DNA from: an uncultured virus (IMG/VR IMGVR_UViG_3300034358_000003)
Taxonomy: Duplodnaviria; Heunggongvirae; Uroviricota; Caudoviricetes
IMG/VR virus record: IMGVR_UViG_3300034358_000003
Direction: 5' to 3' (one strand)
DNA: 36,997 nucleotides
The notes beneath the pieces are model-generated. The model had not been told where the DNA came from and made no database searches. It saw nothing but the letters and a program-made list of their open reading frames with translations. Of this stretch, positions 10,914 to 35,203 are shown piece after piece; position 1 is the stretch's first letter; every line of letters starts with the position of its first letter. The translations under genes were made by a program, and so were the position numbers.

Positions 10914-10921
10914 ATGTATCT

Positions 10922-11008: not shown

Positions 11009-11015
11009 GTTTGTT

Positions 11016-11295: not shown

Positions 11296-11300
11296 ATGTT

Positions 11301-11426: not shown

Positions 11427-11432
11427 ATTGTT

Positions 11433-19145: not shown

Positions 19146-19366
19146 TGGCAAGAATGACTGTTGACACAGACGCAAGAGCAGTGCCTGAAGTTCAGATGGG
19201 CACGCTTTTGTACTGGAAAGAAGACCCAACTTATGTTGTAATGTGCACTGGCATGCTGATGGGCGATGAGTTTCCGGGCGTTGCCCTCGACACTGGTGCT
19301 TATGGCGAACAGTGGATCATTGATGAATACTCTGTCTTCCAAGGCAAAGTGACTCTGGAGCAGTAA
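19145..19366 (+). CDS. Hypothetical protein
   Basis: AGGAGG RBS. Confidence 0.75.
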   Translation: MARMTVDTDARAVPEVQMGTLLYWKEDPTYVVMCTGMLMGDEFPGVALDTGAYGEQWIIDEYSVFQGKVTLEQ

Positions 19367-19368
19367 TC

Positions 19369-19542
19369 ATGAAAGTTTGGGTTGTGACAAACGTCGAGCT
19401 TGGCTGGGATTGCATCGTTGGTATTTTCGATCCAGCCAGCTTAACCAAGCAAGAAATTGAAGAAAGATTTCCCAAACGGAGTGGTTATATAGTACACTGG
19501 GGTCCGCATACAGTTCACAATGATTTTGAGGAGTTTGAATAA
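19369..19542 (+). CDS. 57-aa hypothetical protein (LGWD family, copy 2), not in ORF track
   Basis: GGAG RBS; MKVWVVTNVELGWDCIVGIFD. Confidence 0.7.
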   Translation: MKVWVVTNVELGWDCIVGIFDPASLTKQEIEERFPKRSGYIVHWGPHTVHNDFEEFE

Positions 19543-20444: not shown

Positions 20445-20860
20445 TGATGAAATTGCGTTTGGATACTGAAGGCTTACGTGCACTGATTGCCAGCAACCCT
20501 GAACTGGAAATTGAAATCGGCAAGGAGGTTATGAACAACATCACCTCTGAGCAGTTGAAGAATAAGGTTTCTGCTCGTATCGATGAAGTGTTGAAGTCTA
20601 TGGTTACTAAGGGTGGTTCTTATTACCAGCCTGTGTACGAAATCAAAGACAAGAACTTCTTGGCTGCAATCGCCGCTGCTTCGAAATCTGTTGTTGACAA
20701 AGCTCTGGACGAAGCTGTGAAGCTTCAGATTGCTGAGACTGTTCTGTCTGCTGTCGAAGCTGAGCGTATCCGTCTGCGTGCAGAGTTAAAAGCCCTGCTG
20801 AAAGAAATCGTCACCCCAGAAATGGCACGTGACATTATGCGGGAGAAAATCTTGCTGTGA
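20444..20860 (+). CDS. Helical hypothetical protein
   Basis: AGGA RBS, coupled to RNA ligase gene. Confidence 0.75.
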   Translation: MMKLRLDTEGLRALIASNPELEIEIGKEVMNNITSEQLKNKVSARIDEVLKSMVTKGGSYYQPVYEIKDKNFLAAIAAASKSVVDKALDEAVKLQIAETVLSAVEAERIRLRAELKALLKEIVTPEMARDIMREKILL

Positions 20861-21249
20861 TGCTCTATCTCGTTCGTGGCTTGCCGGGTTCTGGCAAGTC
20901 CACCTTCGCAAAAGAGTTGGCAGATGGTTTGGATTGCAATCACTTTGAGCATGACAAGTGTCTGTACACCGAGGAAGGCGAGTACCTTTGGACTGAAAAG
21001 CGAATGGCTTACGCCTATCGTCAATGTCTGCGGGATACTGAAGCGACGATGGCTGAAGGTGAGCCTGTCGTTGTCTCCAACGTGTTCCCAACGGCGAAGT
21101 CGTTAAAGAACTATCGCAAACTGGCTGAGAAGTATGGTCATCGTGTGACGTACATCGTCGTAGAGAATCGTCGTGGTGGAACCAACATCCATGATGTGCC
21201 TCAAGAGGCGTTGGACAACATGCGGGAAGCTTTCCAAGTTTCTCTGTAA
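20860..21249 (+). CDS. P-loop kinase (polynucleotide-kinase-like)
   Basis: RGLPGSGKST, VVVSNVF, HDVP motifs. Confidence 0.85.
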   Translation: MLYLVRGLPGSGKSTFAKELADGLDCNHFEHDKCLYTEEGEYLWTEKRMAYAYRQCLRDTEATMAEGEPVVVSNVFPTAKSLKNYRKLAEKYGHRVTYIVVENRRGGTNIHDVPQEALDNMREAFQVSL

Positions 21250-21255
21250 AACCAG

Positions 21256-21292
21256 TTGACACCGTGGGCCACTCCTGACAGAATGGCCCCAC
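21256..21292 (+). promoter_or_regulatory. Repeat-family promoter 1 (PRPS-like gene)
   Basis: TTGACA-17-CAGAAT-GGCCCCAC. Confidence 0.65.
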
Positions 21293-21312
21293 TTAAACAA
21301 ATGAGGTGCAAC

Positions 21313-22191
21313 ATGACTGACTTTAACGAAAACCTGTTCTACACTCTGGATGGTCGCCAACCACGAACCAGCATTTCCGTCATGACCTTTCCGGGTGGCG
21401 AAGTGGGCGTGAACATCAATACTGGTAGTTTGGACGCTTGGAATCCTCAAGCTGCGAATGTGAAATACATCGACCTGTTCGCAAAGATTCAGAACAGTGA
21501 TCAACTGATGGCGATGTTCCTTGCCACTGATGCCCTGCGTCGTGTTTACCCGTATGCAGTGATTGACCTGACGATACCCTACTTCCCGTATGCCCGCCAA
21601 GACCGCGTATGCAACGCTGGAGAGGCTTTGAGCGTCAAGGTGGTAGCTACACTCATCAACTCGATGAACTACGCCTCTGTGACCGTTGTAGACCCTCACA
21701 GCCCTGTGCTTGTAGCTGCTCTGGACAAAGTTTTTGTTGTAGAACAGTCCAAGGCATTCCAGAAGGTTAAACAAGACTGGAGCAAATGGACTATTGTCGC
21801 TCCTGATGTTGGTGCGATCAAGAAGACTGAGGACTTCGCAAAGCTGGTCGGTGCCAAGGATGTGCTTTACTGCAACAAGAAGCGTAACCTTGCAGATGGT
21901 AAGATTCTGGGCATGACTATCCTCAACCCAGAGATTCTGACTGTGGGAGCCAGCCTGCTTGTTCTTGACGACATCTGTGATGGTGGCCGCACCTTTATTG
22001 AGGTTGCCAACGCTATCCAACTGGCCTCGCCAAGAGTTGACGGTGTGATGGACTACTCCATTGAACTGGCAGTCACTCACGGTATCTTCTCTAAGGGTGT
22101 TGGGGTGTTGACAGACGTGTACGACCACGTATACACTACAGACTCACTGCCACAAATGGCACATTCCAAACTGACTGTTGTCGAACTGTAA
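21313..22191 (+). CDS. Ribose-phosphate pyrophosphokinase-like protein (probable NARP1 Adps)
   Basis: FPGGE, PYFPYARQDR, DPHS, APD.GA, DDICDGGRT, THGIFS motifs. Confidence 0.9.
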   Translation: MTDFNENLFYTLDGRQPRTSISVMTFPGGEVGVNINTGSLDAWNPQAANVKYIDLFAKIQNSDQLMAMFLATDALRRVYPYAVIDLTIPYFPYARQDRVCNAGEALSVKVVATLINSMNYASVTVVDPHSPVLVAALDKVFVVEQSKAFQKVKQDWSKWTIVAPDVGAIKKTEDFAKLVGAKDVLYCNKKRNLADGKILGMTILNPEILTVGASLLVLDDICDGGRTFIEVANAIQLASPRVDGVMDYSIELAVTHGIFSKGVGVLTDVYDHVYTTDSLPQMAHSKLTVVEL

Positions 22192-22201
22192 GGAGCTACA
22201 C

Positions 22202-23050
22202 ATGAAAAAGATTATCGCTGGTGTTCTGGGTTTGCTGATGATGGGTACGGTCGTTGTTGAAGCTGGGGCAGCATCTCGCGTCTCTTCTTCCTCACGATCC
22301 AGCTATAGTTCTTCGTCTCGGGCGTCGTCCAGTCCAAAGAGCTATTCTGCCCCAAAGTCTTATTCGGCTCCAGCGGTGTCCGCTCCGAGCCGTTCAACAA
22401 GCAGCAATCCCGGCCTAAAAGCCCTTGGCTTCTCCAAGCCTGCACCAATCCAGACGGTAAGTCGTCCAAGTGCAGGCGTGTCGTCTAGTCGTCCAACCTC
22501 GGTACAATCGACAAGTTGGTTTGGCAAGAAGTCTGTAAGCTCGGCACCTGTATCATCGTATCGTGCCCCTGCACGTCAAGTGAGTAGCCCTGTTTCGTAC
22601 CGTTCTAATCGCTCGGTGTACAGCAGCCCGCGAACGACTGTGGTGCAACGAAACTATTACAGCAATTCGTATGGAGGCTACAATGGATATAATCGGGGTT
22701 ATGGTGGTTACGGTTACAACCCTTATGGTGGGTACAACTCTGGTGGAAGCAGCTTCCTATATGGTGCTGCGGGGGCGATTGGCGGTGTAATGCTGTACAA
22801 CGCTCTGACCACGCCACATCACAATAGTGGCGTAAGCTCTGGGGCTACTGCTGCACAGATTGAACAAGCAAAAACTGACCAGCGTATAGAAGACAAACTG
22901 GACATGCAAAACCAGCTTCTGATGCAACAACGTCAACCAACGGTAGCGGCAGCTCCTGTGGTGATGCAACAGCCGCAATGCTACTTGCCACCAGATGCTC
23001 CGCTTATGATGAACCCACAATTTTACTGCGGAGTAAACAATGCTAACTAA
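22202..23050 (+). CDS. Exported low-complexity Ser- and Gly/Tyr-rich protein
   Basis: Signal-peptide-like MKKIIAGVLGLL..AGA; Ser-rich tract; YGGY repeats; Gly-zipper helix; AAGGAG RBS. Confidence 0.75.
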   Translation: MKKIIAGVLGLLMMGTVVVEAGAASRVSSSSRSSYSSSSRASSSPKSYSAPKSYSAPAVSAPSRSTSSNPGLKALGFSKPAPIQTVSRPSAGVSSSRPTSVQSTSWFGKKSVSSAPVSSYRAPARQVSSPVSYRSNRSVYSSPRTTVVQRNYYSNSYGGYNGYNRGYGGYGYNPYGGYNSGGSSFLYGAAGAIGGVMLYNALTTPHHNSGVSSGATAAQIEQAKTDQRIEDKLDMQNQLLMQQRQPTVAAAPVVMQQPQCYLPPDAPLMMNPQFYCGVNNAN

Positions 23051-23195
23051 ACGCGAAACGAATCACCTTGGTCATTTTCTGCTGACCCTATTCATCTGGC
23101 CTTGGCTGTTCGCTTGGATTATGTTCTACATGTCCAACCGTCGCCACAACGATGAAGTTGATCGAATGATCTGGCAATCGCAACAAAAAGGTTGA
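23040..23195 (+). CDS. 51-aa membrane peptide, not in ORF track
   Basis: GGAG RBS; NHLGHFLLTLFIWPWLFAWIMFY hydrophobic stretch. Confidence 0.65.
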   Translation: MLTKRETNHLGHFLLTLFIWPWLFAWIMFYMSNRRHNDEVDRMIWQSQQKG

Positions 23196-23227
23196 CACGG
23201 TGGGCCAATCTGATAAGATGGCCCCAC
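23192..23227 (+). promoter_or_regulatory. Repeat-family promoter 2 (Nampt-like gene)
   Basis: TTGACA-16-TAAGAT-GGCCCCAC. Confidence 0.7.
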
Positions 23228-23254
23228 ACAAACGAGACACAAAGGAGATTCACA

Positions 23255-24862
23255 ATGAGTAACTTCTTGATGCAACTGGCTACTGATGGTTACAAACTGG
23301 GTCACGGCCCTATGTACCGCAAAGGCACCACTGTTGTAGGCTCTAACCTGACACCACGTACTGACAAGATTCACCGCCGTAACTGCACCGCGTTCTACGA
23401 CGGCAAACTGGTTTGGGTTGGTGGTCAAGCTGCTGTACAAGAGCTGAACGAGAACTGGATTCGCACCTTCTTCACCCAGCCAAAGGCTCAAGTGATCGAA
23501 GAGTACGCTGAATTCCTGCTGGGTTATCTGGGTCGTGAGTTGCCGACCGTTGGTCAAATGGAAGCGCTGCACGATCTGGGCTACCTGCCACTGGAATTCC
23601 GTTCGCTGCCAGAAGGTTCGTTGGTTCCGATGGGTATCCCAGTACTGACCATCACAAACACGCTGCCTGAGTTCTTCTGGTTGGTTAACTACCACGAAAC
23701 TCCACTGTCCACTTCCACTTGGAAGACAGCAACCAACGCCACAATCGCACGTGAGTATCGTCTGATCTGTGAACACTATACCAAGCTGACTGGCTGCTAC
23801 GATGCCTTCACTGTTTCGGTTATGTGCCACGACTTCTCGATGCGTGGGATGAGCGGTATTGAAGACGCTGCACGTAGCGGTATCGGCCACTTGACTCAGT
23901 TCATCGGTACTGACACCCTGCCAGCAATCACCTATGCTAAGCACTACTACGATGCAACTGGCATGATTGGTATCAGCGTTCCAGCGACTGAACATGCTGT
24001 GACTTCGAACAACATTCTGTCCATTCTGGCAGAGCTGGAAGCTGGGGAGTACCAATTCCTAAGCAAAGAGCAAGAAGCCATTTACAACAAAATGGCATGT
24101 AATCTTGAAGATGATCGTCTGATTGCAGAAGTAATGTTCGTATACGATCTGATCACACGTATCGTTCCAGATGGCATTGTATCGAACGTCAGCGACACTT
24201 ACGACTTCTGGGGTATGCTCACTCGCGGGTATCCGTACCTGAAAGACGTGATCATGGCACGTGAAGGCTTTGGCCCACAACCGGGTAAACTGGTGGTGCG
24301 TCCAGACTCTGGTGATCCTGTTCTGGTTATCTGTGGTGACAAGTCGGCTCCTGTTGACAGCCCAGAGTATAAAGGTGCAATCCAGATTCTGTGGGAAACC
24401 TTTGGTGGCACTATCACTGAAACTGGTCACAAGCTGCTTGACTCGCATATCGGTCTGATCTATGGTGACTCGATTACTACCAAACGTGCTTTAGAGATTC
24501 TAAGCCGTTTGGCTGAACAGGGATACGCTGCTGCAAACGTTGTCTTCGGGGTTGGTAGCTACACCTACCAGTGCAACACCCGTGACACCTTCGGTTTCGC
24601 TGTGAAGGCAACCAACTCTGTCATCAGTGGTGACGAAGTGGCAATCTACAAAGACCCGAAGACTGACAGCAAGAAGAAAAGTGCCAAAGGTCGTCTGTTT
24701 GTCGATCTGGATCACGAACTGGATGGCTACCCATTCTCGCTGGAGGACAATGTGTCCGCTGCGAAGGAAGCTAGTGCAGAGAACATGCTGAAAGTGTTCT
24801 TCCGTGATGGCGTCTTCCTGAGCCGTGTCACTCTGGATGAGATTCGTACCCGCTCTGCATGA
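23255..24862 (+). CDS. Nicotinamide phosphoribosyltransferase-like protein (probable NARP1 Namat)
   Basis: TDGYKLGH, HDFSMRG, GTDT, SVPATEH, VSDTYD, VRPDSGDP, IYGD, TRDTFGFAVK motifs; AAGGAG RBS. Confidence 0.92.
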   Translation: MSNFLMQLATDGYKLGHGPMYRKGTTVVGSNLTPRTDKIHRRNCTAFYDGKLVWVGGQAAVQELNENWIRTFFTQPKAQVIEEYAEFLLGYLGRELPTVGQMEALHDLGYLPLEFRSLPEGSLVPMGIPVLTITNTLPEFFWLVNYHETPLSTSTWKTATNATIAREYRLICEHYTKLTGCYDAFTVSVMCHDFSMRGMSGIEDAARSGIGHLTQFIGTDTLPAITYAKHYYDATGMIGISVPATEHAVTSNNILSILAELEAGEYQFLSKEQEAIYNKMACNLEDDRLIAEVMFVYDLITRIVPDGIVSNVSDTYDFWGMLTRGYPYLKDVIMAREGFGPQPGKLVVRPDSGDPVLVICGDKSAPVDSPEYKGAIQILWETFGGTITETGHKLLDSHIGLIYGDSITTKRALEILSRLAEQGYAAANVVFGVGSYTYQCNTRDTFGFAVKATNSVISGDEVAIYKDPKTDSKKKSAKGRLFVDLDHELDGYPFSLEDNVSAAKEASAENMLKVFFRDGVFLSRVTLDEIRTRSA

Positions 24863-24868
24863 TGTATC

Positions 24869-24893
24869 GCCCCTCTTCGGAGGGGCTTCTTTT
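24869..24893 (+). terminator. Intrinsic terminator
   Basis: GCCCCTC-TTCG-GAGGGGC-TTCTTTT. Confidence 0.8.
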
Positions 24894-24907
24894 CAAAGGA
24901 GGTTAAG

Positions 24908-25033
24908 ATGGAATGGTTGTTCGGGTTGTTCGCCCTGTGTGCTGTTGGGGCTTTGATTGACGATATCCACTCAAAGTGGCACAAGCGTGAAATGGTTAAG
25001 GCTAAACACTACAAGGAGTTGATCTACACATGA
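24908..25033 (+). CDS. 41-aa membrane peptide, not in ORF track
   Basis: AGGAGG RBS; MEWLFGLFALCAVGALI. Confidence 0.6.
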   Translation: MEWLFGLFALCAVGALIDDIHSKWHKREMVKAKHYKELIYT

Positions 25034-25254
25034 AACTACTCTGCACGTACTTTGCTTCTGGCATCCGTTATCACTGGGGTCAAGAGGTTACGTTCCACAG
25101 GATTTTCCACGTAACTCATATTGGTCATGCTGATCCTGTGTGGGCTGCGAATTGGATTCAAAGTGAAGTTGAGAAGAAAGGTGGGAGCGTAGTCTTCACA
25201 CAGTTCAATATGGTTGGTGCGGCACAGGAGGTAAGTGATGACTTTGAAGTATAA
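25030..25254 (+). CDS. Hypothetical protein
   Basis: ATGA overlap, AGGAG RBS. Confidence 0.65.
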   Translation: MKLLCTYFASGIRYHWGQEVTFHRIFHVTHIGHADPVWAANWIQSEVEKKGGSVVFTQFNMVGAAQEVSDDFEV

Positions 25255-25720
25255 AGTTGGTGATATTGTGAACGCAATTCTGAGAGGTGAAGTGGTCGCA
25301 ATAGGCCATCAAGCCAACTGCTTCAACACGATGAATTCTGGTGTAGCTAAGGCCATCAAAGCTCGACTACCTTGTGCATGGGAAGCTGACCAGCTCACTT
25401 TGAAGGGTGATCTTGACAAACTTGGTGGAACCTCCATAGGCCAACTGCGTGATGAAGCTGGACAACCTACAGGATTGGTGTACAATCTCTACGGTCAGTA
25501 CAACTACGGTTACGACTCCAAAGGCTACACCAATTATGAAGCTCTACGTGGTGCTTTGATGCACATGCGTGATGACCTTCTAACTGGCAACAACCTCTGG
25601 AATGTTGGATTCCCTAAAATTGGTGCTGGACTTGGTGGTGGTGACTGGGATACAATTGCTCGCATCATTGATGAAGTATTCGATGACCGCTTCAACGTCA
25701 CCATCTACACACTGCAATAG
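25238..25720 (+). CDS. Macrodomain (ADP-ribose binding/hydrolase)
   Basis: GDI, HQANC...M.SGVAKAIK, NLYGQ, FPKIGAGLGGGDW motifs. Confidence 0.9.
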   Translation: MTLKYKVGDIVNAILRGEVVAIGHQANCFNTMNSGVAKAIKARLPCAWEADQLTLKGDLDKLGGTSIGQLRDEAGQPTGLVYNLYGQYNYGYDSKGYTNYEALRGALMHMRDDLLTGNNLWNVGFPKIGAGLGGGDWDTIARIIDEVFDDRFNVTIYTLQ

Positions 25721-27660: not shown

Positions 27661-28027
27661 AGGCAGTTTGTGGTATGAGTTCGACCAGAATAACTCCGGC
27701 GGTTACTTCGAAAGTGACGATTTTGTATCGGAGTTAGTGTATGTCCAAGCGATGAACTCTGACCAAGCTGAGGACATCATGCGTGAACTGATCGATAAGG
27801 CAGACGCTTGGAATTACTGTGAGTGCTGTGGTGAGCGTTGGAGTTTCTGGAATGTCAAGGGGCATGAAGTGCCTATGCGTTATGGGAAAGAAGTTTCTAA
27901 AGGGGTTGACCTGTTCCGTCGTGACGGGTATATTCTCTTCCACGGGCTGAATGGCCGCACACTGAAATGGAGTGGTAAACACAGTGACACCCCTACAGAA
28001 ATTGGCCGAATTGAGAAAGGAGAGTAA
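27641..28027 (+). CDS. Hypothetical phage protein (QNNSGG / CECCGERW family)
   Basis: GGAG RBS before ATG 27641. Confidence 0.75.
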   Translation: MFPVKIEGSLWYEFDQNNSGGYFESDDFVSELVYVQAMNSDQAEDIMRELIDKADAWNYCECCGERWSFWNVKGHEVPMRYGKEVSKGVDLFRRDGYILFHGLNGRTLKWSGKHSDTPTEIGRIEKGE

Positions 28028-28034
28028 ACCCACT

Positions 28035-29165
28035 ATGAGCACCGTATTCCAAAGAATGCAGACCACTGTGGCAGACTTGCCAGTACGAGGCGCTGCACCC
28101 GGCCATGCACCATCTTTTGTTGGTGTTATTGAGCCACGACACAGTGCATTCCCAGCAACAATTCGTGAAGCTGGGTTGCCAGCACGTAAGCTCCTCGTAT
28201 CTGATGAGGACATTGATCGCATCGGTGAGAACGTCTCCCGTGAGCTGGGTAACACCACTCAGAAGATCATCACCAAGATGTCTGTCGGTAAGTTTGAGGA
28301 ACTGGGTGCAATCCTGACTGTGATTGCGTCTGAAGCTGATAAGCTTGATCCTGCTTCCCTTCAGAAAGGTGGTATGGTGGGGTGGTTCCAGAATAAATTC
28401 AGTGACTTGAAGAATACTCTGACTATGCGTTTGTCGTCTGCACAGCAAGTGTTTGGTGATCTGGAAAATAAAATCTCCACGAATATCACCACTCAACAGC
28501 AGTGGATCACTGACATGGAAGGTTTGTATGGCGAGAACTACAACCACTATGGTAAGATCACCTCTGAGATGCGTGAAGTCCAAAACCTCATTGACACTTG
28601 CGAGTCCCAAGTGGCTGCGTGGCCTGAGATTGATCTTGATGGCCCTAATGCTGCAATGGAAGCTCAGATGGTGCGTGATGCTGAATCCAAGATTCACCGT
28701 CTGAAGCTGAAGCTGGACACCCTGTTGCGTCTGAAAACTATGACTGAAATCAACAGTCCACGTATTCGTCAGCAGCAAGAGTCGAGCCGTACAGCCGTCT
28801 CTACACTGAAAGGTATCATGATGAACATCCCAGTAATCATGATGGAGTTCGCTCTGTTCAAACAGACTCTGGACGTGAACACCAGCATTCAGCTTGTGAG
28901 CAATGTTCGGGATTTGACTGAAAAGTCCTTGCTTCAGGGTAGTGCTGGTGCTAAACTTGCTGCCATCAACAGTGCTAAGGCACTGGGTACTGCAACCATC
29001 TCGACTGAGACTCTGAGCACACTGCGTCAACGTGTTCTGGAGACTGTAACTGAGGTGCGTCAAATCGAGCGTGATGATGTTGCTCGATGCTCTACAGATG
29101 CAAAAGAGTTGTCGAACGGGCAGAAAAGTCTGTTGACAGCACTCAAACAAACCGGTACTATTTAA
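28035..29165 (+). CDS. Toxic anion resistance (TelA/KlaB-like) protein
   Basis: 376-aa coiled coil with PRIR.QQ...L...IP pattern; adjacent to Ter genes. Confidence 0.7.
   Translation: MSTVFQRMQTTVADLPVRGAAPGHAPSFVGVIEPRHSAFPATIREAGLPARKLLVSDEDIDRIGENVSRELGNTTQKIITKMSVGKFEELGAILTVIASEADKLDPASLQKGGMVGWFQNKFSDLKNTLTMRLSSAQQVFGDLENKISTNITTQQQWITDMEGLYGENYNHYGKITSEMREVQNLIDTCESQVAAWPEIDLDGPNAAMEAQMVRDAESKIHRLKLKLDTLLRLKTMTEINSPRIRQQQESSRTAVSTLKGIMMNIPVIMMEFALFKQTLDVNTSIQLVSNVRDLTEKSLLQGSAGAKLAAINSAKALGTATISTETLSTLRQRVLETVTEVRQIERDDVARCSTDAKELSNGQKSLLTALKQTGTI
29133..29161 (+). promoter_or_regulatory. sigma70-type promoter for vWA gene
   Basis: TTGACA-17-TACTAT. Confidence 0.6.
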
Positions 29166-29188
29166 CACATCAAAACAAAGGAGGATAT

Positions 29189-29839
29189 ATGAGTATGCCA
29201 ATGTTAGACTTGACCAAAGCTCTGGAATTGAATCTTGAGAAGGCTCAGATTTTCACACCAATCATCATGTCGGTAAAACTGGCAGTAGACAAATCTGGCA
29301 GCATGCAAGATGAGTTTGCATGTGGTTGGGTACAAGACACCCTCGACCTGTTCTTGGCTGCGGCCATGAAGTTTGACGATGACGGCAAGATGGAGATTGG
29401 TTTCTTCAACACTTCGTTTGACCGTACACCAGACATGACAGTGGACGACGCTCACACCTATATCCGTAACAAGGGTATCTCTGCTGGCGGCGGCACTAAC
29501 TTCGCAGATGCTATCGCTGGTCTGAAAGGTCAAGCAACCAAACGTGGTTTGTTCGGCTTCGGTGCGGCTAAACCTGTCACACCAACCTATCTGGCCCTGA
29601 TCACTGACGGCGAGAACAACGATAAGCGTGAATTTGAAGCTCAGCTTGATTCGCTGGAGAACACCTTCGTACAGATTGTTGCCATCGGTAACGGCTGTAA
29701 CAAGCGTTATCTGGATGCTGTGGCTGCGAAATACGACACTGTTGAAGTGCTGTATATCCCGAATCCAAAGGCTGTCGATCAGAACAAGTTTTATGAGCTG
29801 TTGCTGAACGAAGAATTTAAAGCCTTCGCAACCAAATAA
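29189..29839 (+). CDS. vWA domain protein (Ter-cluster type)
   Basis: MIDAS DKSGSM, FDDDG, GGT, ITDGE motifs; AGGAGG RBS. Confidence 0.85.
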   Translation: MSMPMLDLTKALELNLEKAQIFTPIIMSVKLAVDKSGSMQDEFACGWVQDTLDLFLAAAMKFDDDGKMEIGFFNTSFDRTPDMTVDDAHTYIRNKGISAGGGTNFADAIAGLKGQATKRGLFGFGAAKPVTPTYLALITDGENNDKREFEAQLDSLENTFVQIVAIGNGCNKRYLDAVAAKYDTVEVLYIPNPKAVDQNKFYELLLNEEFKAFATK

Positions 29840-29843
29840 ATAG

Positions 29844-29880
29844 TTGACAACATGAGGGCCAGTCGTTAAGATGGCCCCAC
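29844..29880 (+). promoter_or_regulatory. Repeat-family promoter 3 (terC)
   Basis: TTGACA-17-TAAGAT-GGCCCCAC. Confidence 0.7.
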
Positions 29881-29907
29881 ACAAACAAACTGAAAGAGGA
29901 AACAAAA

Positions 29908-30588
29908 ATGATGGAATTCTTCGCGATGCTCGACTGGGCTGCAATCTTCAAGATTACAATGATCGACTTGCTGCTTGGGTTGGACAACGCAATCGTAATC
30001 GCTCTGGCATGTGCTTCACTCGCTGTAAGTGTTCGTGGTAAGGCGATCCTTCTGGGTACTGCTGGTGCCATCGTACTGCGAGCTATCCTGTTGGTGTTTG
30101 CGACTTTCCTTCTGGGTATCCCGTTCCTGAAGTTGTTCGCTGGTGCTTACCTGATCTGGATTGGTTACTCGCTGTTGACTGGTCATGAAGAAGACCCAGA
30201 AGTTGCACAGAAATCCACAATCTGGGGTGCTGTCTGGACTATCATTGTAGCTGACTTCATGCTCTCGCTGGATAACGTAATGGCTGTAGCAGGTGCTGCT
30301 TCTAGCACTGGTGAACACTCGACTCTGTATGCAATTGCTGGTATCGTGTTGAGCATCCCAATCATTGTCTACGGTGCGAAATACCTGTCTGGTTTGATGG
30401 ATAAATTCCCAGTAATCATCTGGATCGGCGCTGCAATGTTGGGTGTGGTTGGTGCTGAAATGATTGTCTCTGATGCACACTTCGTTGAGTACATTGGTGA
30501 AGTTAACCACTGGATTGCAAAAGCTATTGGTGCTGGTATCGTTGTAGCGACTGCTTTTACTGCAAAGAAACTCAGCAAAACTGCTTGA
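29908..30588 (+). CDS. terC: TerC family membrane protein
   Basis: IDLLLGLDNAIVIA and IIVADFMLSLDNVMAVAG motifs; multiple TM helices. Confidence 0.9.
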   Translation: MMEFFAMLDWAAIFKITMIDLLLGLDNAIVIALACASLAVSVRGKAILLGTAGAIVLRAILLVFATFLLGIPFLKLFAGAYLIWIGYSLLTGHEEDPEVAQKSTIWGAVWTIIVADFMLSLDNVMAVAGAASSTGEHSTLYAIAGIVLSIPIIVYGAKYLSGLMDKFPVIIWIGAAMLGVVGAEMIVSDAHFVEYIGEVNHWIAKAIGAGIVVATAFTAKKLSKTA

Positions 30589-30621
30589 CACTCATCTGAA
30601 AAGGGGCCACAATGGCCCCAC
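30585..30621 (+). promoter_or_regulatory. Repeat-family promoter 4 (terD)
   Basis: TTGACA-17-CACAAT-GGCCCCAC. Confidence 0.65.
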
Positions 30622-30647
30622 ACAAACTACTAAAGAGGAACTTGATA

Positions 30648-31223
30648 ATGGAGCTTAACTTGAGCAAAGATACCCTGATGTTGGACCTGACCAAAGTTGC
30701 ACCTTCGCTGACCCGTCTGCGTGGCGCTCTGAACTGGAACCTGCACCCGATGGCAAGCAAAGGCCATGAATTTGACCTTGACATCTTCATGTTCCTGACC
30801 AGTAATGGCAGCATCCAAGGCGATATGAAGAACGTTTGCTTCTTCAACAACAAAGATTGCTACAATGGTGCTGTTGTTCTGCCACGTGATAACCGTAACG
30901 GTGCTGACGTTGAAGGTCAGGATGACGAAGAAATTCTGGTAGAGATTGGCAAGGTGCCAGCACACATCGACAAGATTGAACACTTCGTCTTCTTGCACGA
31001 TGCAATCACTCGGAACCAAGACTTCAGCATGATCGCTGGTGGTAGTTTTGATCTGTACGACCAAGACGACAACCTGCTGGCACAGTACAAGCTGCAACAG
31101 TTCGTAAACGGTACTGCACTTCACGTGGGTACTCTGCAACGCACTGGTAATGGTTGGGGCTTCCAGCCTGTTGGTGAGTCGGCTCAGGCCAACCCTAACG
31201 AGGTGTTGAAAGCCTTCGCATAA
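30648..31223 (+). CDS. terD: TerD family stress protein
   Basis: FDLD, FFNN, DNRNG...DDEEI, W.F..VGE motifs. Confidence 0.85.
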   Translation: MELNLSKDTLMLDLTKVAPSLTRLRGALNWNLHPMASKGHEFDLDIFMFLTSNGSIQGDMKNVCFFNNKDCYNGAVVLPRDNRNGADVEGQDDEEILVEIGKVPAHIDKIEHFVFLHDAITRNQDFSMIAGGSFDLYDQDDNLLAQYKLQQFVNGTALHVGTLQRTGNGWGFQPVGESAQANPNEVLKAFA

Positions 31224-31234: not shown

Positions 31235-31265
31235 AGCCCACTAGCTCACGCTCAGTGGGCTTTTT
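31235..31265 (+). terminator. Intrinsic terminator
   Basis: AGCCCACT...AGTGGGCT-TTTT. Confidence 0.75.
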
Positions 31266-31791: not shown

Positions 31792-32186
31792 TGAAGATCA
31801 GGTCTATCGAAGAAACATCTTGGAACCGTAAAGATAGCTGGTATTCCAGCGGCTACGACGGCTTCGTTGTAACACTTGAGGATGACACCCAGATCAAAAT
31901 GGGCATCTCCAATGGACAGAACTGCTGTGAGCAGTGGGGTTATCTGATTTCAGAAGACGACCTCTCTGAGTTCGTTGGTGCTGAATACTTCAGTGTTGAA
32001 GCTGTAGGTGAGGCACTGGAACACGTAGCTGTTAAAGGTGGCTACGAAGGTGGGATTATGTTCATCAACATCAACACATCTGCGGGCGTACTTCAATTTG
32101 TGGCGTACAACGACCACAATGGGTATTACTCTCATCAAGCGGTGCTCATCGAAGATGGAACAGTCACACACTCTGAAAGTTTGTAA
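31791..32186 (+). CDS. Hypothetical protein (Q.CCE...HNGYYSH family)
   Basis: AAGGAG RBS. Confidence 0.8.
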   Translation: MKIRSIEETSWNRKDSWYSSGYDGFVVTLEDDTQIKMGISNGQNCCEQWGYLISEDDLSEFVGAEYFSVEAVGEALEHVAVKGGYEGGIMFININTSAGVLQFVAYNDHNGYYSHQAVLIEDGTVTHSESL

Positions 32187-32358
32187 CATCTGCGGGGCGG
32201 AAGAACCGCTCCCGTGGTTTGAACAACCAATGAATGAAGAGATTCGTGCTTACGCACGGTCTTACATCTCCCCAGTCAAGACATTCAACACTTCACTATG
32301 GGCTGAGCTTGAGGATTGGGGACTAACGGAGGGATTAGAACATGACAGCAATGATTAG
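32155..32358 (+). CDS. Hypothetical protein (CxxC), start uncertain
   Basis: Fills gap between neighbours, no clear RBS. Confidence 0.4.
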   Translation: MEQSHTLKVCNICGAEEPLPWFEQPMNEEIRAYARSYISPVKTFNTSLWAELEDWGLTEGLEHDSND

Positions 32359-32596
32359 TGTCAAAGCAACAACCCGTCAGGAACGCCTTGAGGCTGCTCG
32401 CACTGAGTGGATTCAAGAGGCAACCACCTATCTGTTTAAGCTTGGTGTCTACGCACCAGACGAACTTGAAGGTGCGAATGAACTGGCAGAAATCCTTTGG
32501 GATAGCTCTGACAATGAAGACTACTTCGATGACCACGCCAACTTTATGGGTGCTGTAGACGCTGTAGACGAAGAACTCACTTACTGGGGAGATTGA
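32342..32596 (+). CDS. Acidic hypothetical protein
   Basis: GGAGG RBS. Confidence 0.7.
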   Translation: MTAMISVKATTRQERLEAARTEWIQEATTYLFKLGVYAPDELEGANELAEILWDSSDNEDYFDDHANFMGAVDAVDEELTYWGD

Positions 32597-32665
32597 TATG
32601 GACGATGAGTTTTGGCTTGTGATAATGATGTGGTGGGTATTGATCCTGATCGTGGCGACCACCTG

Positions 32666-33100
32666 ATGGACACACGTAAATGCTATACAATGGAAACAGG
32701 CTACACCTCAAGCGACTTCTCGTTCTTTCGCAGAAGCCCTAACAGCCTTGAGGTGGGACGCCCCGAGTGTTATGGCCTTCAGGCTGAGGCTGGCCGTGAG
32801 AAGTGGTATCTTGTAGACACGTATACACACTACTGGAAGAGTGGTCATGGCTCTGACTACGTTCTGGTGCTGGTCAATGACAAAGGCACACAGATTGAGA
32901 CATCTGCCTTTGGTTGGAGACGTGTCACCACTGAGCACGACAAAGCCCTCAAAGAGCAGAAAGACTACAAGAAATTCATTGACGCACTAGCTGAATGTGG
33001 TAAACTCTGCCCCAACGGAGCAAGCCGCTGGTTCAATGAGGCTGTGCTTGAAAACTTCGAACACACATTTGAGGAAATACTCTACTATGGCGATGAATAG
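32666..33100 (+). CDS. Hypothetical protein
   Basis: TGATG coupling to a 22-codon hydrophobic ORF (32598-32666). Confidence 0.65.
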   Translation: MDTRKCYTMETGYTSSDFSFFRRSPNSLEVGRPECYGLQAEAGREKWYLVDTYTHYWKSGHGSDYVLVLVNDKGTQIETSAFGWRRVTTEHDKALKEQKDYKKFIDALAECGKLCPNGASRWFNEAVLENFEHTFEEILYYGDE

Positions 33101-33560
33101 TCCTTTGGACAATCTGCTTGATATCCGTGTGACACAATACCTCCCACAGACTGGCTACGGAGCTGGCGGCATGACCGTTGGCCTTACCACAAGTGGTATC
33201 ATTGTGCACCATATTCCCTCTGGAATGGGCATTTCCTGTGATAGTGAGCGTAGCCAACACGCAAACAAAGAGAAAGCTTTGATGATGCTGGAAGCTCTTC
33301 TACTCGCCATTGAGAGTGAGAAACACTTCCCGCCTCCAACACCTTATGTGGCTGGTAAAGTAATGATGATCAAAGAGGTGAGAGAGAAGACTGGCTTCGG
33401 TTTGAAGGAGTCCAAGGACGCAGTAGACAAGATGGGCACTGTTGAGGGAGCTATTCTGCACCTGACAGGCTCTGCTGGATATTGTGACCTTGGTGTGAAG
33501 TGTTGCTGTGGCGGTGACTTGCCATCTATCCGTGAGGGGTGCTACAATTGGCAGAAGTGA
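33093..33560 (+). CDS. Fusion of class-1 release-factor catalytic-domain homologue (GGM for GGQ) and L7/L12-CTD-like segment
   Basis: GAGGMTV..TTSGI...HIPSG....C.SERSQHANKEKAL matches RF1 domain 3; KVMMIKEVREKTGFGLKESKDAVD matches L7/L12 CTD; start uncertain. Confidence 0.75.
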   Translation: MNSPLDNLLDIRVTQYLPQTGYGAGGMTVGLTTSGIIVHHIPSGMGISCDSERSQHANKEKALMMLEALLLAIESEKHFPPPTPYVAGKVMMIKEVREKTGFGLKESKDAVDKMGTVEGAILHLTGSAGYCDLGVKCCCGGDLPSIREGCYNWQK

Positions 33561-33808
33561 CTATCAAGGAGAAGACGACACGCATTATCACAATGCGTCA
33601 AGCTCTCTATCAAGAGTTGGTTGCACTCCAAAAGGCTTGTCCACACAATGACAAGACAGGTAAGTACGGCTCCAACACTGGTAACTACGACCCATCTGCT
33701 GACTGTTATTGGATCAATGTGTCCTGCGAAGACTGCGGACGCACGTGGTCTATCTACAGCGATGAACCCGGCTACAGAGGGTTTGATGGGAGGATCATTC
33801 GTGACTAG
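33557..33808 (+). CDS. Hypothetical protein (CPH...CxxC, copy 1)
   Basis: GTGA overlap. Confidence 0.65.
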   Translation: MTIKEKTTRIITMRQALYQELVALQKACPHNDKTGKYGSNTGNYDPSADCYWINVSCEDCGRTWSIYSDEPGYRGFDGRIIRD

Positions 33809-33935
33809 TGTGAAAGGCGATAACCCAACAGGCTGGGTGGCCTATGTTCGCAACTTCAAAGAGAAACATCCTGATGTTGTGATCGATTACAAACAACTCA
33901 TGCAAAAATATATCAAAGGGGAGAGACCTGAATGA
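33801..33935 (+). CDS. Small hypothetical protein
   Basis: GGAGG RBS before GTG 33801. Confidence 0.55.
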   Translation: MTSVKGDNPTGWVAYVRNFKEKHPDVVIDYKQLMQKYIKGERPE

Positions 33936-34135
33936 CCAAACTACCACTACTAACTCAGAACGAAATCTACAAGATCGCTGCACGTGCTGAAGAGACAATC
34001 AAGAACACCACATCCCGTTCCTCTCACCTTATGTGTGTAGAGAACGCTGTACGTGAAGCTGTACAACTCATGATTGAGAAGCTGGATATCCAGATTGTTA
34101 GTCCATTCCAAATCGACTTGAGCAAGCCACAATGA
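33932..34135 (+). CDS. Hypothetical protein
   Basis: GGAG RBS, ATGA overlap. Confidence 0.7.
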   Translation: MTKLPLLTQNEIYKIAARAEETIKNTTSRSSHLMCVENAVREAVQLMIEKLDIQIVSPFQIDLSKPQ

Positions 34136-34419
34136 CACACGTAGTCACTCGTAAGTGGGGACTGAGTGATAAGGTATTTGAGAACGCTTATGCTGTTGGC
34201 GAGCGTACAAGATTGCAGGATCAAATTATTGCCTTAGCTGCTGAGATGGAAGAGTTAAAACTAGACTGTCCTCATAATGAAGGGTGGTTGAGACACAAAC
34301 ACCATCAGTTTAAGCATGGCTGGGGAGTGTCTTACTGGACTACTTCTGAGTGTGCAAACTGCGGCAGCATCCTACGATCCAATGATGAGACATATAGATA
34401 CCGAGTGGAGGAAGATTAA
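34132..34419 (+). CDS. Hypothetical protein (CPH...CxxC, copy 2)
   Basis: ATGA overlap. Confidence 0.7.
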   Translation: MTHVVTRKWGLSDKVFENAYAVGERTRLQDQIIALAAEMEELKLDCPHNEGWLRHKHHQFKHGWGVSYWTTSECANCGSILRSNDETYRYRVEED

Positions 34420-34556
34420 TGAGTGATTGGAAGGAAATAGAAGACCACAACCAAGACTGTGGTGATGACAATGGCTGGTGTGGGTATTGCTGGCGGTGCC
34501 GTGAGCACGCAGAGTGGCTGCATAAAGTAGCTGAATGGGAGGAAGAGGGACGATGA
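34419..34556 (+). CDS. 45-aa Cys/Trp-rich peptide, not in ORF track
   Basis: GGAGG RBS; WCGYCWRC. Confidence 0.55.
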   Translation: MSDWKEIEDHNQDCGDDNGWCGYCWRCREHAEWLHKVAEWEEEGR

Positions 34557-34777
34557 AAGAGTTTGAAATCCGTAAGACAAGAGCATTCTGCCGTCTGTGC
34601 GAGAGCACATCTGAGGATGACATGGTGGTGATTCCCTTCCGGTATGCAGGTAAGAATGCACCAATCATTCTGTGTAAGGGTTGCATCAAACACCTGAATG
34701 AAGCAGTGAATCCTGCACCCCCACTGTACAGCTCTGCTGATGACTGGGAACCAACCATGCGTTTCTTCAGGGATTGA
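34553..34777 (+). CDS. Hypothetical Zn-finger-like protein
   Basis: CRLC...LCKGC; GAGG RBS. Confidence 0.7.
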   Translation: MKEFEIRKTRAFCRLCESTSEDDMVVIPFRYAGKNAPIILCKGCIKHLNEAVNPAPPLYSSADDWEPTMRFFRD

Positions 34778-34778
34778 C

Positions 34779-34922
34779 ATGCCTAAACACACCATATATC
34801 AACTCTTCACCAAGCGGTGGATGTGCCGTGAGGCGGGAGAGTACACACAATATCGCGGCTATGGTGATACACCTGAAGAGGCTCACCAAGATTGGCTGCA
34901 CCAGATGAGGTATGAGAAATGA
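34779..34922 (+). CDS. Small hypothetical protein (GYGDTPEEA)
   Basis: Fits operon packing. Confidence 0.6.
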   Translation: MPKHTIYQLFTKRWMCREAGEYTQYRGYGDTPEEAHQDWLHQMRYEK

Positions 34923-35158
34923 GTTGGCAAGAACGAACAGCTATGATGTCTCCTGCACAGGAACGTGAGTTCTGGTTGAAGGAAGTAGAGAGCCGTATGG
35001 AGCATGGTGGATTGCTGGTCAATCGGAGGTACATGCCAAGCTTGGACAGGACACCTGTGTTGCGTAAGCTCGTTGAAGATGGTAAGCTTATACGTGTGCG
35101 TGAAGGCACATGGTTGAGCACTCATGTCCGTAGGACATTTCTGAAACTCCCAATCTAA
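34919..35158 (+). CDS. Hypothetical protein
   Basis: GAGG RBS, ATGA overlap. Confidence 0.7.
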   Translation: MSWQERTAMMSPAQEREFWLKEVESRMEHGGLLVNRRYMPSLDRTPVLRKLVEDGKLIRVREGTWLSTHVRRTFLKLPI

Positions 35159-35176: not shown

Positions 35177-35203
35177 AGCCTCCTTTATTGGGGGCTTTGT
35201 TTT
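35177..35203 (+). terminator. Terminator ending plus-strand block
   Basis: AGCCTCC-TTTATT-GGGGGCT-TTGTTTT. Confidence 0.7.

What the first reader, a model, noticed from the sequence alone, without database searches (positions are those of the whole stretch)
33093..33560. Release-factor catalytic domain with GGQ->GGM fused to an L7/L12-like segment
Seen: GAGGMTVGLTTSGIIVHHIPSGMGISCDSERSQHANKEKAL parallels RF1 GAGGQHVN.TDSA.RITHLPTG..V.CQDERSQHKNK.KAL, with ATG at the catalytic Gln codon. After a Pro linker, KVMMIKEVREKTGFGLKESKDAVD resembles the L7/L12 CTD (also the EF-Ts N-terminal helices), followed by a Cys-rich tail. Known: GGQ is needed for peptidyl-tRNA hydrolysis and is methylated by PrmC, and the L12 CTD recruits translational GTPases. 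Inference: a catalytically altered translation-factor mimic. It could be a PrmC or ribosome decoy, an antidote to RF-like defence toxins, or a modulator of ribosome rescue.
Basis: partly seen in the sequence, partly recalled or inferred. Interest (0 to 1): 0.75.

Follow-up and report, generated by a model that had tools for sequence, protein, structure and literature searches.

The report
Phage release-factor domain with GGM motif
A Pseudomonas phage gene joins the peptide-releasing domain of a bacterial release factor, in which methionine replaces the supposedly universal catalytic glutamine, to the factor-binding helices of ribosomal protein L12, and relatives show the change is the conserved norm and not damage.

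Summary
Window 33093-33560 (+) encodes a 155-residue protein. It matches Pfam RF-1 (E 6.8e-13) and Ribosomal_L12 (E 4.6e-7), both above Pfam's cut-offs. GGM lies exactly on the GGQ of E. coli RF1.

The window is an Otagovirus-like Pseudomonas phage. The gene belongs to a phage family, phrog_35727, of unknown function, which GenBank labels "peptide chain release factor 1".

In an alignment of 97 family members the motif is GGM in 77 and GGQ in 8. The GGQ members are scattered over the tree. Seven members form a clade with a shorter HGNSTW loop, and the other five have SGM, GGL, GGI, GY or SNF. The gene is under purifying selection, with dN/dS about 0.19. GGM is therefore the selected state, not decay.

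The "L12" part is only the helix 4-5 factor-binding motif, and it is predicted to sit in a three-helix UBA / EF-Ts-N-like bundle. A conserved four-Cys tail follows.

My best reading (0.45) is a codon-independent peptidyl-tRNA hydrolase that needs no methylation and frees stalled ribosomes during infection. The main rival is a non-catalytic binder of the ribosomal A site. No activity or partner was shown. I rate it a new variant of a known kind.

The parts
33093..33560 (+). Whole gene, 155 codons plus stop. An alternative in-frame ATG lies at 33087. The start overlaps the stop of the upstream ORF 32612-33100.
   Evidence: phrog_35727 E 3.7e-75; 108 homologues; dN/dS median 0.19
33117..33326 (+). 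Release-factor peptidyl-tRNA-hydrolase domain (RF1/RF2 domain 3), residues 9-78
   Evidence: Pfam RF-1 E 6.8e-13; E. coli RF1 220-285; family profile against RF1 E 2.6e-18; Foldseek RF1/RF2 E 7e-5; VIA 1zbt_A Z 9.4, rmsd 2.4 A over 68
33165..33173 (+). GGM tripeptide (G25 G26 M27) in the place of the catalytic GGQ; codons GGC GGC ATG
   Evidence: alignment; codons; family census GGM 77, GGQ 8 of 97
33243..33281 (+). SERSQHANKEKAL, the most conserved stretch. E52 R53 S54 Q55 N58 A62 are invariant. It matches the ERSQHKNKAKAL of RF1.
33327..33353 (+). Pro-rich linker, residues 79-87, variable in length and sequence
   Evidence: alignment; dN/dS 1.46 over 14 usable pairs; pLDDT dips here
33354..33470 (+). 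Three-helix UBA-like module, residues 88-126. Its first two helices carry the bL12 CTD helix 4-5 motif KVxMIKxVRxxxGxGLKExKxxVD.
   Evidence: Pfam Ribosomal_L12 E 4.6e-7; T. maritima L12 68-102 E 7.7e-5; helices 84-100, 104-114 and 117-125; EF-Ts N-domain 1xb2_B Z 5.7, rmsd 0.9 A over 41; near-invariant V90 I93 K94 R97 G101 G103 L104 K105 E106 K108 D112
33471..33557 (+). Cys-rich tail, residues 127-155, pattern C-x5-C-x-C-x10-C plus GGDLPxIREGCxNW. Probably a metal-binding knuckle (inference).
   Evidence: 76 of 97 family members carry it; C131/C137/C139 invariant and C150 nearly so; the same tail ends unrelated proteins P0232, P0248 and P0250; no Pfam family; no fold match found

Best explanation
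The gene encodes a three-module phage translation protein.

Module 1 is a minimal copy of domain 3 of a class-I release factor, the part that reaches into the peptidyl-transferase centre and triggers hydrolysis of peptidyl-tRNA. It has no stop-codon-reading domains. Module 2 is a small three-helix bundle whose first two helices are the conserved helix 4-5 surface of ribosomal protein bL12. On the ribosome that surface contacts IF2, EF-Tu, EF-G and RF3. Module 3 is a four-Cys knuckle.

I think it most likely works as a codon-independent peptidyl-tRNA hydrolase. The L12-like module, with the knuckle, would hold it at the ribosome's factor-binding side or on a translational GTPase. The flexible linker would let the RF domain enter a vacant 50S A site. 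The GG backbone and the main-chain NH of residue 27 would promote hydrolysis. Met would stand in for Gln as a side chain of similar size, and so would remove the dependence on host PrmC methylation. The phage would use the protein to free ribosomes that stall during infection, for example after host mRNA decay or after tRNA cleavage by defence nucleases.

Shown here: the domain identities, the family-wide GGM, purifying selection, the modular build and the genomic setting. Inferred: ribosome binding, hydrolysis, the partner of the L12-like module, metal binding and the biological role.
For: - RF-1 and L12 profile matches both exceed Pfam's cut-offs. GGM lies exactly on GGQ.
- The closest relatives of the RF domain are RF1 and RF2: family profile 69.6 bits for RF1, against 46.7 for PrfH and 18.9 for ArfB.
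- 87 of 97 family members keep Gly-Gly followed by M, Q, L or I. The SERSQ..NK..AL stretch shared with RF1 is invariant or nearly so.
- GGQ and GGM members are interleaved on the tree. Eight changes are needed for the eight GGQ rows, and at least three are forced by starred branches. P0097 (GGM) and P0101 (GGQ) are sisters at 99*. Q and M therefore look interchangeable.
- dN/dS is 0.16 for the RF domain, 0.23 for the L12-like module and 0.24 for the tail, against 1.46 for the linker.
- Passages of PMC4691834 state that the two glycines are indispensable, that the Gln main-chain amide coordinates the water, that Q-to-P abolishes release, that a Q-to-E mutant keeps reasonable activity, and that N5-methylation raises RF2 kcat about 10-20-fold.
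- A passage of PMC6753160 says bL12 helices 4-5 bind IF2, EF-Tu, EF-G and RF3. The family keeps this motif almost letter for letter.
- The same phage arm carries 19 tRNA genes, a T4-Rnl1-like RNA ligase and an AAA_33 kinase. This is a tool-kit for keeping translation running.
Against: - No assay exists for any member.
- A monophyletic clade (7 of 97, support 100*) has a shorter HGNSTW loop with no Gly-Gly, yet keeps every other invariant residue of the RF domain and stays 81% identical within the clade. Two further members (SNF, GY) also lack GG. At least in these members the selected function cannot be GGQ-type hydrolysis.
- In one positional orthologue (L009, with P0133 of the same kind) the whole RF domain is replaced by an unrelated Cys-rich domain, while the L12-like module and the tail stay. 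The constant part may therefore carry the core function.
- Surveys of RF-type domains treat versions without the Gln as inactive (passages of PMC6514570).
- There is no ArfB-like basic tail and no codon-reading domain, so it is unclear how stalled ribosomes would be told from working ones.
- I did not see Met tested at this position in any paper.
Confidence: 0.45

Rival explanations
1. It is a non-catalytic A-site or PTC binder. The RF-like head docks in the 50S A site but does not hydrolyse. The hydrophobic Met (or the HGNSTW loop) occupies or shields the site, and the L12-like module tethers the protein to the factor-binding region or to a GTPase. The effect would be to pause, protect or re-programme ribosomes. 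For example, it could block host release or rescue factors, or hold ribosomes for phage messages.
For: The HGN clade and two other members lack Gly-Gly but keep the rest of the domain under conservation. Hydrophobic residues recur at this position in other phage RF-like ORFs: SGM in L012 and L014, GGF in L015-L017 and L019. Surveys call Gln-less RF-type domains inactive binders, for example Dom34 (passages of PMC6514570).
Against: Gly-Gly is kept in 87 of 97 members, and the third residue is restricted to M, Q, L or I. That constraint is hard to explain if only occupancy mattered. GGQ members, which should be catalytically competent, are interleaved with GGM members. A general A-site blocker would also hit phage translation.
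Confidence: 0.3
2. The working part is the C-terminal half, the L12/EF-Ts-like module plus the Cys knuckle. It targets a translational GTPase or another host protein. The N-terminal head is an exchangeable accessory, so the RF domain and its GGM are secondary.
For: L009 and P0133 keep the C-terminal half with a different N-domain at the same genomic position. The helix-pair motif occurs alone in dozens of unrelated phage ORFs (L020-L068). The Cys tail ends unrelated small proteins (P0248, P0250, P0232). The predicted fold is closest to the EF-Ts N-domain as seen in EF-Tu/EF-Ts complexes.
Against: The RF domain has the lowest dN/dS of the three modules (0.16) and is present in all 108 homologues found. 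21 of 97 members lack the four-Cys tail, so the tail is dispensable. The fold matches are weak (Z below 8, Foldseek E above 0.3).
Confidence: 0.12
3. It is a PrmC decoy. The GGM loop mimics the substrate or product of the RF glutamine methyltransferase, cannot be methylated, and so titrates PrmC and weakens host termination.
For: Met cannot be methylated at N5. The flanks of the loop resemble those of RF1. PrmC binds RF1 (entry 2b3t is listed).
Against: Eight family members have GGQ and would be substrates, not inhibitors. Nine members lack the motif altogether. The fused bL12-type motif points to the ribosome or its GTPases, not to PrmC. No test was made here.
Confidence: 0.05
4. It is a decaying or mis-called remnant of a captured prfA gene with no function of its own.
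For: GenBank records simply call it peptide chain release factor 1. It is only 155 residues long.
Against: There are 108 homologues on phage-sized contigs. dN/dS is 0.19. Residues are invariant in all three modules. It has a PHROG family of its own.
Confidence: 0.02

Closest known systems
Domain 3 (GGQ domain) of bacterial class-I release factors RF1/RF2
   Same: It is the best sequence and fold match. The Gly-Gly, the SERSQ..NK helix start and the beta-beta-beta-alpha layout are shared.
   Different: It has no domains 1, 2 or 4 and no PxT/SPF codon reader. Met replaces the Gln. It is fused to an L12-like module and a Cys knuckle. It scores far below the prfA and prfB equivalog cut-offs, 49 bits against 423 and 370.
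ArfB (YaeJ) / ICT1, stand-alone GGQ-domain rescue factors
   Same: The overall logic is the same: a lone hydrolase domain, a flexible linker and a C-terminal targeting part. This is what I think the phage protein works like.
   Different: The ArfB model scores only 12.9 bits against a cut-off of 100. The phage domain is nearer to RF1/RF2. The C-terminal part is a UBA-like bundle plus a Cys knuckle, not the basic helix that enters the mRNA channel.
Phage stand-alone GGQ mini-proteins (about 70 residues)
   Same: These are phage-borne copies of RF domain 3 without codon readers. I saw them in L008, L010, L011 and L013 with GGQ and as viral Atlas clusters of 71-253 members.
   Different: They have no C-terminal modules. 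Those I saw mostly keep GGQ. They are untested as well.
Phage proteins carrying a bL12 domain (Mizuno et al. 2019, PMC6375957, passages read)
   Same: The paper reports bL12 domains placed at varying positions within larger phage proteins that retain the residues contacting uL11, EF-G and EF-Tu. It proposes that they offer interfaces for translation factors.
   Different: The terms 'release factor' and 'Pseudomonas' do not occur in that paper's main text. Here only helices 4-5 are kept, in a three-helix bundle.
Gln-less RF-type domains (Dom34/Pelota and the others listed in PMC6514570)
   Same: These are RF-type domains that have lost the catalytic Gln yet act on ribosomes.
   Different: Those families lose conservation of the whole loop. 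Here Gly-Gly-Met is itself conserved and alternates with Gly-Gly-Gln.

Membership tests
Class-I release factor RF1/RF2 (prfA/prfB) | RF-1 (PF00472) hydrolase domain | tested here: met
   49 bits against a cut-off of 35, E 6.8e-13; fold match to RF1 and RF2
Class-I release factor RF1/RF2 (prfA/prfB) | Full-length architecture with codon-recognition domains (PCRF; PxT or SPF motif) | tested here: not met
   The protein has 155 residues. Pfam reports only RF-1 and L12. TIGR00019 scores 48.9 against 423, and TIGR00020 scores 49.3 against 370.
Class-I release factor RF1/RF2 (prfA/prfB) | Gly-Gly-Gln catalytic tripeptide | tested here: not met
   GGM aligns on GGQ. 77 of 97 relatives also have GGM.
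ArfB / ICT1 | Match to the ArfB equivalog model | tested here: not met
   NF006718 scores 12.9 bits against a cut-off of 100. ArfB chains give E 0.29 and E 0.01 with the family profile.
ArfB / ICT1 | Basic C-terminal helix that senses the empty mRNA channel | tested here: not met
   The C-terminal part is predicted as a three-helix bundle plus a Cys-rich tail. No such helix is present.
PrfH | Match to the release_prfH equivalog | tested here: not met
   TIGR03072 scores 33.2 bits against a cut-off of 166.65
Ribosomal protein bL12 | C-terminal domain profile (PF00542) | tested here: met
   30.5 bits against a cut-off of 25.9, but only profile positions 11-38 of 67 (helices 4-5) are matched
Ribosomal protein bL12 | N-terminal dimerisation / uL10-binding domain and the full alpha/beta CTD fold | tested here: not met
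   There is no Ribosomal_L12_N match. TIGR00855 scores 23.9 against 84.4. The models show three helices and no sheet.
EF-Ts N-terminal / UBA-like three-helix domain | Three-helix fold superposable on the EF-Ts N-domain | tested here: inconclusive
   1xb2_B gives Z 5.7-5.8, rmsd 0.9 A over 41 residues. The top Foldseek rows are EF-Ts, but with E 0.35-0.9. By sequence, E. coli EF-Ts gives E 1.1. Z below 8 may reflect only a common arrangement.
phrog_35727 (phage family, unknown function) | Full-length profile match | tested here: met
   E 3.7e-75, residues 9-155 on profile positions 5-162 of 162

The most novel reading that the evidence does not exclude
This is a natural, widespread family in which the 'universal' catalytic Gln of the release-factor GGQ motif has been replaced by Met while peptidyl-tRNA hydrolysis is retained. 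The result would be a release factor that needs no methylation and reads no codon, brought to the ribosome through a borrowed bL12 factor-binding surface and used by phages to recycle stalled ribosomes. Repeated switching between Q and M within the family would then be a natural experiment on what the Gln side chain is for.
Probability: 0.4. Interest if true: 0.8.

Novelty: new variant of a known kind. Interest (0 to 1): 0.66.

Why it matters
GGQ is treated as invariant in all release factors, and the role of its Gln side chain and of its methylation is still argued. A conserved family with GGM, a few GGQ members and one clade with a different loop offers ready-made variants for testing that question. 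It also points to a phage strategy aimed at the A site of host ribosomes. The fusion links two things phages are known to carry separately: bare GGQ domains and bL12 pieces. More than 40 sequenced phages of Pseudomonas syringae and its relatives, several of them proposed for crop biocontrol, carry the gene under the misleading name "peptide chain release factor 1".

Tried and rejected
- Complex prediction of residues 80-155 with P. syringae EF-Tu gave no verdict (score 0.05 against a mark of 0.32, controls not run). It says nothing for or against binding.
- No whole genome is held for this window, so the rest of the phage could not be scanned.
- The search for longer relatives scored none of 487 candidates. 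The search for shorter ones found 3 fragments. Both are weak evidence that no other fused or split forms exist.
- Foldseek on the C-terminal model found no match at E 0.001 or better. VIA-align found none at Z 8 or above. The Cys tail matched nothing, and at about 30 residues it is barely testable.
- Neighbouring small ORFs gave only PHROGs of unknown function. PHROGs found nothing for the N-domain of L009, and Pfam found only the L12 module in the related P0133.
- Earlier-findings look-ups by place and by sequence returned nothing.
- Literature searches found no paper that describes this family, a GGM motif or an RF-L12 fusion. The PHB09 genome paper lists the homologue only in a table. I did not find data on a Gln-to-Met substitution. 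Shaw and Green 2007 and Mora et al. 2003 are not in the library; I know them only through citing passages and from memory.
- I considered whether the ATG might serve as an internal start. Six of 109 public ORF calls begin at it, and GGAG lies 8 nt upstream. I rejected it as the main explanation because the 26 residues before it are conserved and other phage RF-like ORFs have F, L or I at this position.
Full report
**What is there.** Window 33093-33560 (+) is an open frame of 155 codons. A second in-frame ATG lies six bases upstream, and the 157-residue form starting there is the one held in the public protein collection (P0002). The start overlaps the stop of the upstream ORF 32612-33100. Pfam reports two domains, both above its curated cut-offs. 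RF-1 (PF00472) scores 49 bits against 35, E 6.8e-13, over residues 22-78. Ribosomal_L12 (PF00542) scores 30.5 bits against 25.9, E 4.6e-7, over residues 88-115. Against solved structures the best hits are E. coli RF1 residues 220-285 (E 1.5e-9), and the printed alignment puts GGM on GGQ. The Met codon is ATG at 33171-33173.

**Whose gene it is.** The window carries capsid, portal and terminase genes and 19 tRNA genes, followed by a long plus-strand block of auxiliary genes. That block includes PhoH, a ClpP-like protease, dCMP deaminase, DNA ligase, a T4-Rnl1-like RNA ligase, an AAA_33 kinase, PRPP synthase, NAPRTase, a Macro domain, and TelA, vWA-TerF, TerC and TerD. DNA and protein searches place the window among Otagovirus-like Pseudomonas phages such as VCM, phiPsa374 kin, 16Q, COT4 and PHB09. 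The best DNA match over the 3-kb query (window 32000-35000) is 86% identical over 59% of it. By tblastn 56 phage records hold a match, 41 of them Pseudomonas phages. Where annotated, the gene is called "peptide chain release factor 1" or hypothetical. PHROGs places it in phrog_35727, function unknown (E 3.7e-75). Terminator-like sites at 31243-31261 and 35177-35196 bracket a run of small plus-strand ORFs that includes this gene. All the neighbours fall in PHROGs of unknown function.

**Is GGM an accident?** It is not.
- The word-indexed search found 108 homologues at E 0.001 or better among 131 candidates, mostly on contigs of 95-99 kb.
- In all 109 sequences (the 108 plus the query) the residue at the Gln position is M in 88, Q in 10, N in 7, and L, I, Y and F in one each. 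Six of the M rows are ORF calls that begin at this very Met.
- I then dropped 12 rows: the duplicate P0002, those six truncated calls and five short fragments. This left alignment A1 of 97 rows.
- In A1 the tripeptide is GGM in 77, SGM in 1, GGQ in 8, HGN in 7, and GGL, GGI, -GY and SNF in one each.
- On a tree built without the loop columns (quick IQ-TREE, 147 columns, many forks unresolved), the eight GGQ rows need eight changes. At least three of these are forced by starred branches. The GGQ label is no more clustered than in shuffles (500 of 500 shuffles were as low). P0097 (GGM) and P0101 (GGQ) are sisters at 99*.
- Q is followed by H, Q or M, and M mostly by T, S or Q. In DNA the two states seen are ATG ACC and CAG CAT. 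The switch takes at least two base changes, so it may travel by recombination between phages. That is inference.

**Selection.** I computed Nei-Gojobori dN/dS on 14 genes: the window, VCM, six IMG/VR contigs and six GenBank phages, giving 91 pairs.

| Region | Median dN/dS | Usable pairs |
|---|---|---|
| Whole gene | 0.19 | 78 |
| RF domain | 0.16 | 61 |
| L12-like module | 0.23 | 62 |
| Cys tail | 0.24 | 50 |
| Linker | 1.46 | 14 |

Synonymous sites are near saturation (median dS 1.1-1.8), so the ratios are rough. Still, all three modules are clearly constrained. E52, R53, S54, Q55, N58, A62, L66 and D112 are invariant in A1.

**The RF module.** The AlphaFold model has mean pLDDT 78. The GGM loop, residues 21-30, is below 50. 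The model shows strands 11-15, 36-40 and 45-49 and a helix at 55-77. Foldseek gives 26 PDB matches at E 0.001 or better. The listed ones are RF1, RF2 and mitochondrial RF chains, best 7.2e-5. VIA-align gives RF1 1zbt_A at Z 9.4, rmsd 2.4 A over 68 residues, then mtRF1, RF1, PrfH, RF2 and mtRF-R at Z 7.7-8.7. The family profile scores RF1 at 69.6 bits, RF2 at 61-66, PrfH at 46.7, C12orf65 at 32 and ArfB at 18.9. The domain therefore derives from a class-I factor and not from ArfB. It fails the equivalog cut-offs for prfA, prfB, prfH and ArfB by wide margins. It is not a release factor in the annotated sense, because it has nothing with which to read a codon.

**The L12-like module.** Sequence similarity is to bL12 helices 4-5 only. 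T. maritima L12 residues 68-102 give E 7.7e-5 with the single sequence, and the family profile gives 5.9e-7. The motif KVxMIKxVRxxxGxGLKExKxxVD is nearly invariant in the family, with V90, I93, K94, R97, G101, G103, L104, K105, E106, K108 and D112 each in 90 or more of 97 rows. [quoted passage not shown] From memory, not from any call, the mutagenesis papers name V66, I69, K70, R73, L80 and E82 of E. coli L12. By my own reading of the shared motif (no call printed an E. coli L12 alignment), all of these have identical counterparts here.

The predicted fold is not the L12 alpha/beta domain. It is three helices (84-100, 104-114, 117-125). Modelled alone (pLDDT 77), its nearest solved structures are UBA-type domains and the N-terminal domain of EF-Ts as seen bound to EF-Tu: 1xb2_B at Z 5.7, rmsd 0.9 A over 41 residues, and 2dal at Z 5.7. 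Seven chains reach Z 5 or more and none reaches 8. The top Foldseek rows are EF-Ts chains at E 0.35-0.9 and L12 1ctf at 0.78, none significant. The fold assignment is therefore a lead and not a result.

**A modular build.**
- A scan of viral contigs with the family alignment returned 67 loci. Reading the ORFs showed six full family members (L002-L007). It also showed roughly 70-80-residue ORFs that are the RF domain alone, with GGQ in L008, L010, L011 and L013 and with SGM in L012 and L014. Larger ORFs carry an RF-like stretch with GGF (L015-L017, L019). Some 45 unrelated ORFs carry only the L12 helix pair, and these include genuine phage bL12 genes (L024, L064, L066).
- L009, from a 98-kb contig, shares flanking genes with the window (the ORFs matching window 32342-32596 and 33932-34135). 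It is a positional orthologue in which the RF domain is replaced by a different Cys-rich domain, while the L12-like module and the Cys tail remain. P0133 is of the same kind.
- An exhaustive HMMER search with residues 80-155 found 581 proteins at E 0.001 or better. Most of the best 150 carry two to six tandem copies of the helix pair.
- Of the 12 proteins I scanned with Pfam, eight gave Ribosomal_L12 above the cut-off, P0133 scored below it, and three gave nothing. By my reading of their sequences, two of these proteins (P0116, P0130) also begin with a hydrophobic, membrane-anchor-like segment.
- Those three (P0232, P0248, P0250) share only the Cys tail.
- Within the family, 76 of 97 members have the C-x5-C-x-C-x10-C tail, 7 have a different CxMPQGHPxHCGC tail, and 14 have neither.

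So the RF head, the L12 helix pair and the Cys knuckle are three separable modules, and the tail is optional.

**How it most likely works.** The head keeps what an RF domain needs to sit in the peptidyl-transferase centre: the Gly-Gly and the SERSQ..NK helix start. Passages of PMC4691834 say that the two glycines adopt a backbone no other residue can, that the main-chain amide of the Gln coordinates the water, and that Q-to-P abolishes release. They also say that a Q-to-E mutant keeps reasonable activity, that the side chain mainly packs the pocket, and that N5-methylation raises RF2 kcat about 10-20-fold. A reference title seen says Gln substitutions in eRF1 do not entirely abolish activity.

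Met is about the size of Gln, is hydrophobic like the methylated form, and needs no PrmC. I therefore favour a codon-independent hydrolase that works without methylation and is tethered by the L12-type surface to the factor side of the ribosome or to a GTPase. It would clear stalled ribosomes during infection. The same genome arm holds 19 tRNA genes, an RNA ligase and a kinase, which fits a programme for keeping translation going. I put this at 0.45.

**What speaks against it.** Seven members form one clade (support 100*) with a loop four residues shorter, HGNSTW, and no Gly-Gly. They still keep H40, P42, G46, SERSQ, ANKE and AL, and they are 81% identical to each other in the RF core. Their RF core differs more from the GGM members (56% identity) than GGM members differ among themselves (70%). 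Their L12-like module is no more divergent (64% against 59%). That looks like a changed function and not decay. It shows that the family can do something useful without GGQ-type chemistry.

The L009 swap points the same way. Surveys treat Gln-less RF-type domains as inactive binders (passages of PMC6514570). That paper's main text mentions neither phages nor L12. A non-catalytic A-site binder is therefore a serious rival (0.30). So is a reading in which the C-terminal half is the business end (0.12). A PrmC decoy (0.05) fits poorly with the GGQ and GG-less members. A dead remnant (0.02) is excluded by the conservation.

**Partner test.** One complex prediction, residues 80-155 with P. syringae EF-Tu, returned no verdict. 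It carries no weight either way.

**Novelty.** Mizuno et al. 2019 (PMC6375957, passages read) reported bL12 domains embedded in larger phage proteins, but "release factor" and "Pseudomonas" do not occur in its main text. The PHB09 genome paper lists the homologue in a table only. Eight literature searches turned up no description of this family, of a GGM motif or of an RF-L12 fusion. Papers outside the library could not be checked. Earlier notes of this scan record bare GGQ mini-proteins and a "dead" RF fragment in other phages, all untested. My loci L008-L014 and the Atlas clusters agree that such mini-domains are common in phages. I class the finding as a new variant of a known kind, the stand-alone RF-type hydrolase domains. 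Its interest lies in the conserved replacement of a residue regarded as universal.

Noticed in passing
window 7422-11508 (- strand): There is a cluster of 19 tRNA genes covering 17 amino acids (two each for Leu, Arg and Ser). A PD-(D/E)XK endonuclease-like ORF lies among them at 8878-9246.
   Followed up: no
window 17930-21246 (+): An HD-domain protein, a metallophosphoesterase, a T4-Rnl1-like RNA ligase (19542-20441) and an AAA_33 kinase (20857-21246) lie together. This looks like an RNA/tRNA repair set.
   Followed up: no
window 21256-25717 (+): A PRPP-synthase-like gene, a NAPRTase-family gene (23192-24859) and a Macro-domain gene lie together. They may form an NAD+ salvage / ADP-ribose module.
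   Followed up: no
window 27972-31220 (+): Tellurite-resistance-type genes TelA, vWA-TerF, TerC and TerD lie in a row just upstream of the small-ORF block. They are also annotated in phage VCM.
   Followed up: no
window 33539-33808 and 34132-34419 (+): Two small Cys-rich ORFs flank the region downstream of the gene. Each carries a CPHN...C..C pattern, and both hit phrog_4837, of unknown function.
   Followed up: partly
L009 2204-2731 (and protein P0133): This is a positional orthologue in a related 98-kb phage contig. An unrelated Cys-rich N-domain replaces the RF domain, while the L12-like module and the Cys tail are kept. PHROGs found nothing for the L009 N-domain, and Pfam found only the L12 module in P0133.
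   Followed up: partly
proteins P0111-P0257: Hundreds of non-ribosomal proteins carry two to seven tandem copies of the bL12 helix 4-5 motif. Two that I read (P0116, P0130) begin with a hydrophobic, membrane-anchor-like segment, and one (P0112) has LRV repeats. Part of the motif is also caught by Pfam DUF6793.
   Followed up: partly
proteins P0232, P0248, P0250: The tail GxCxxGxxCxCGGDLPxxREGCxNW ends otherwise unrelated proteins of 68-240 residues. It has no Pfam family, so it is an undescribed small Cys module.
   Followed up: partly
L015-L017, L019; L012, L014: Other phage ORFs with an RF-like stretch also have a hydrophobic residue where Gln should be: GGF in L015-L017 and L019, SGM in L012 and L014. 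L018 has no Gly-Gly at all.
   Followed up: no
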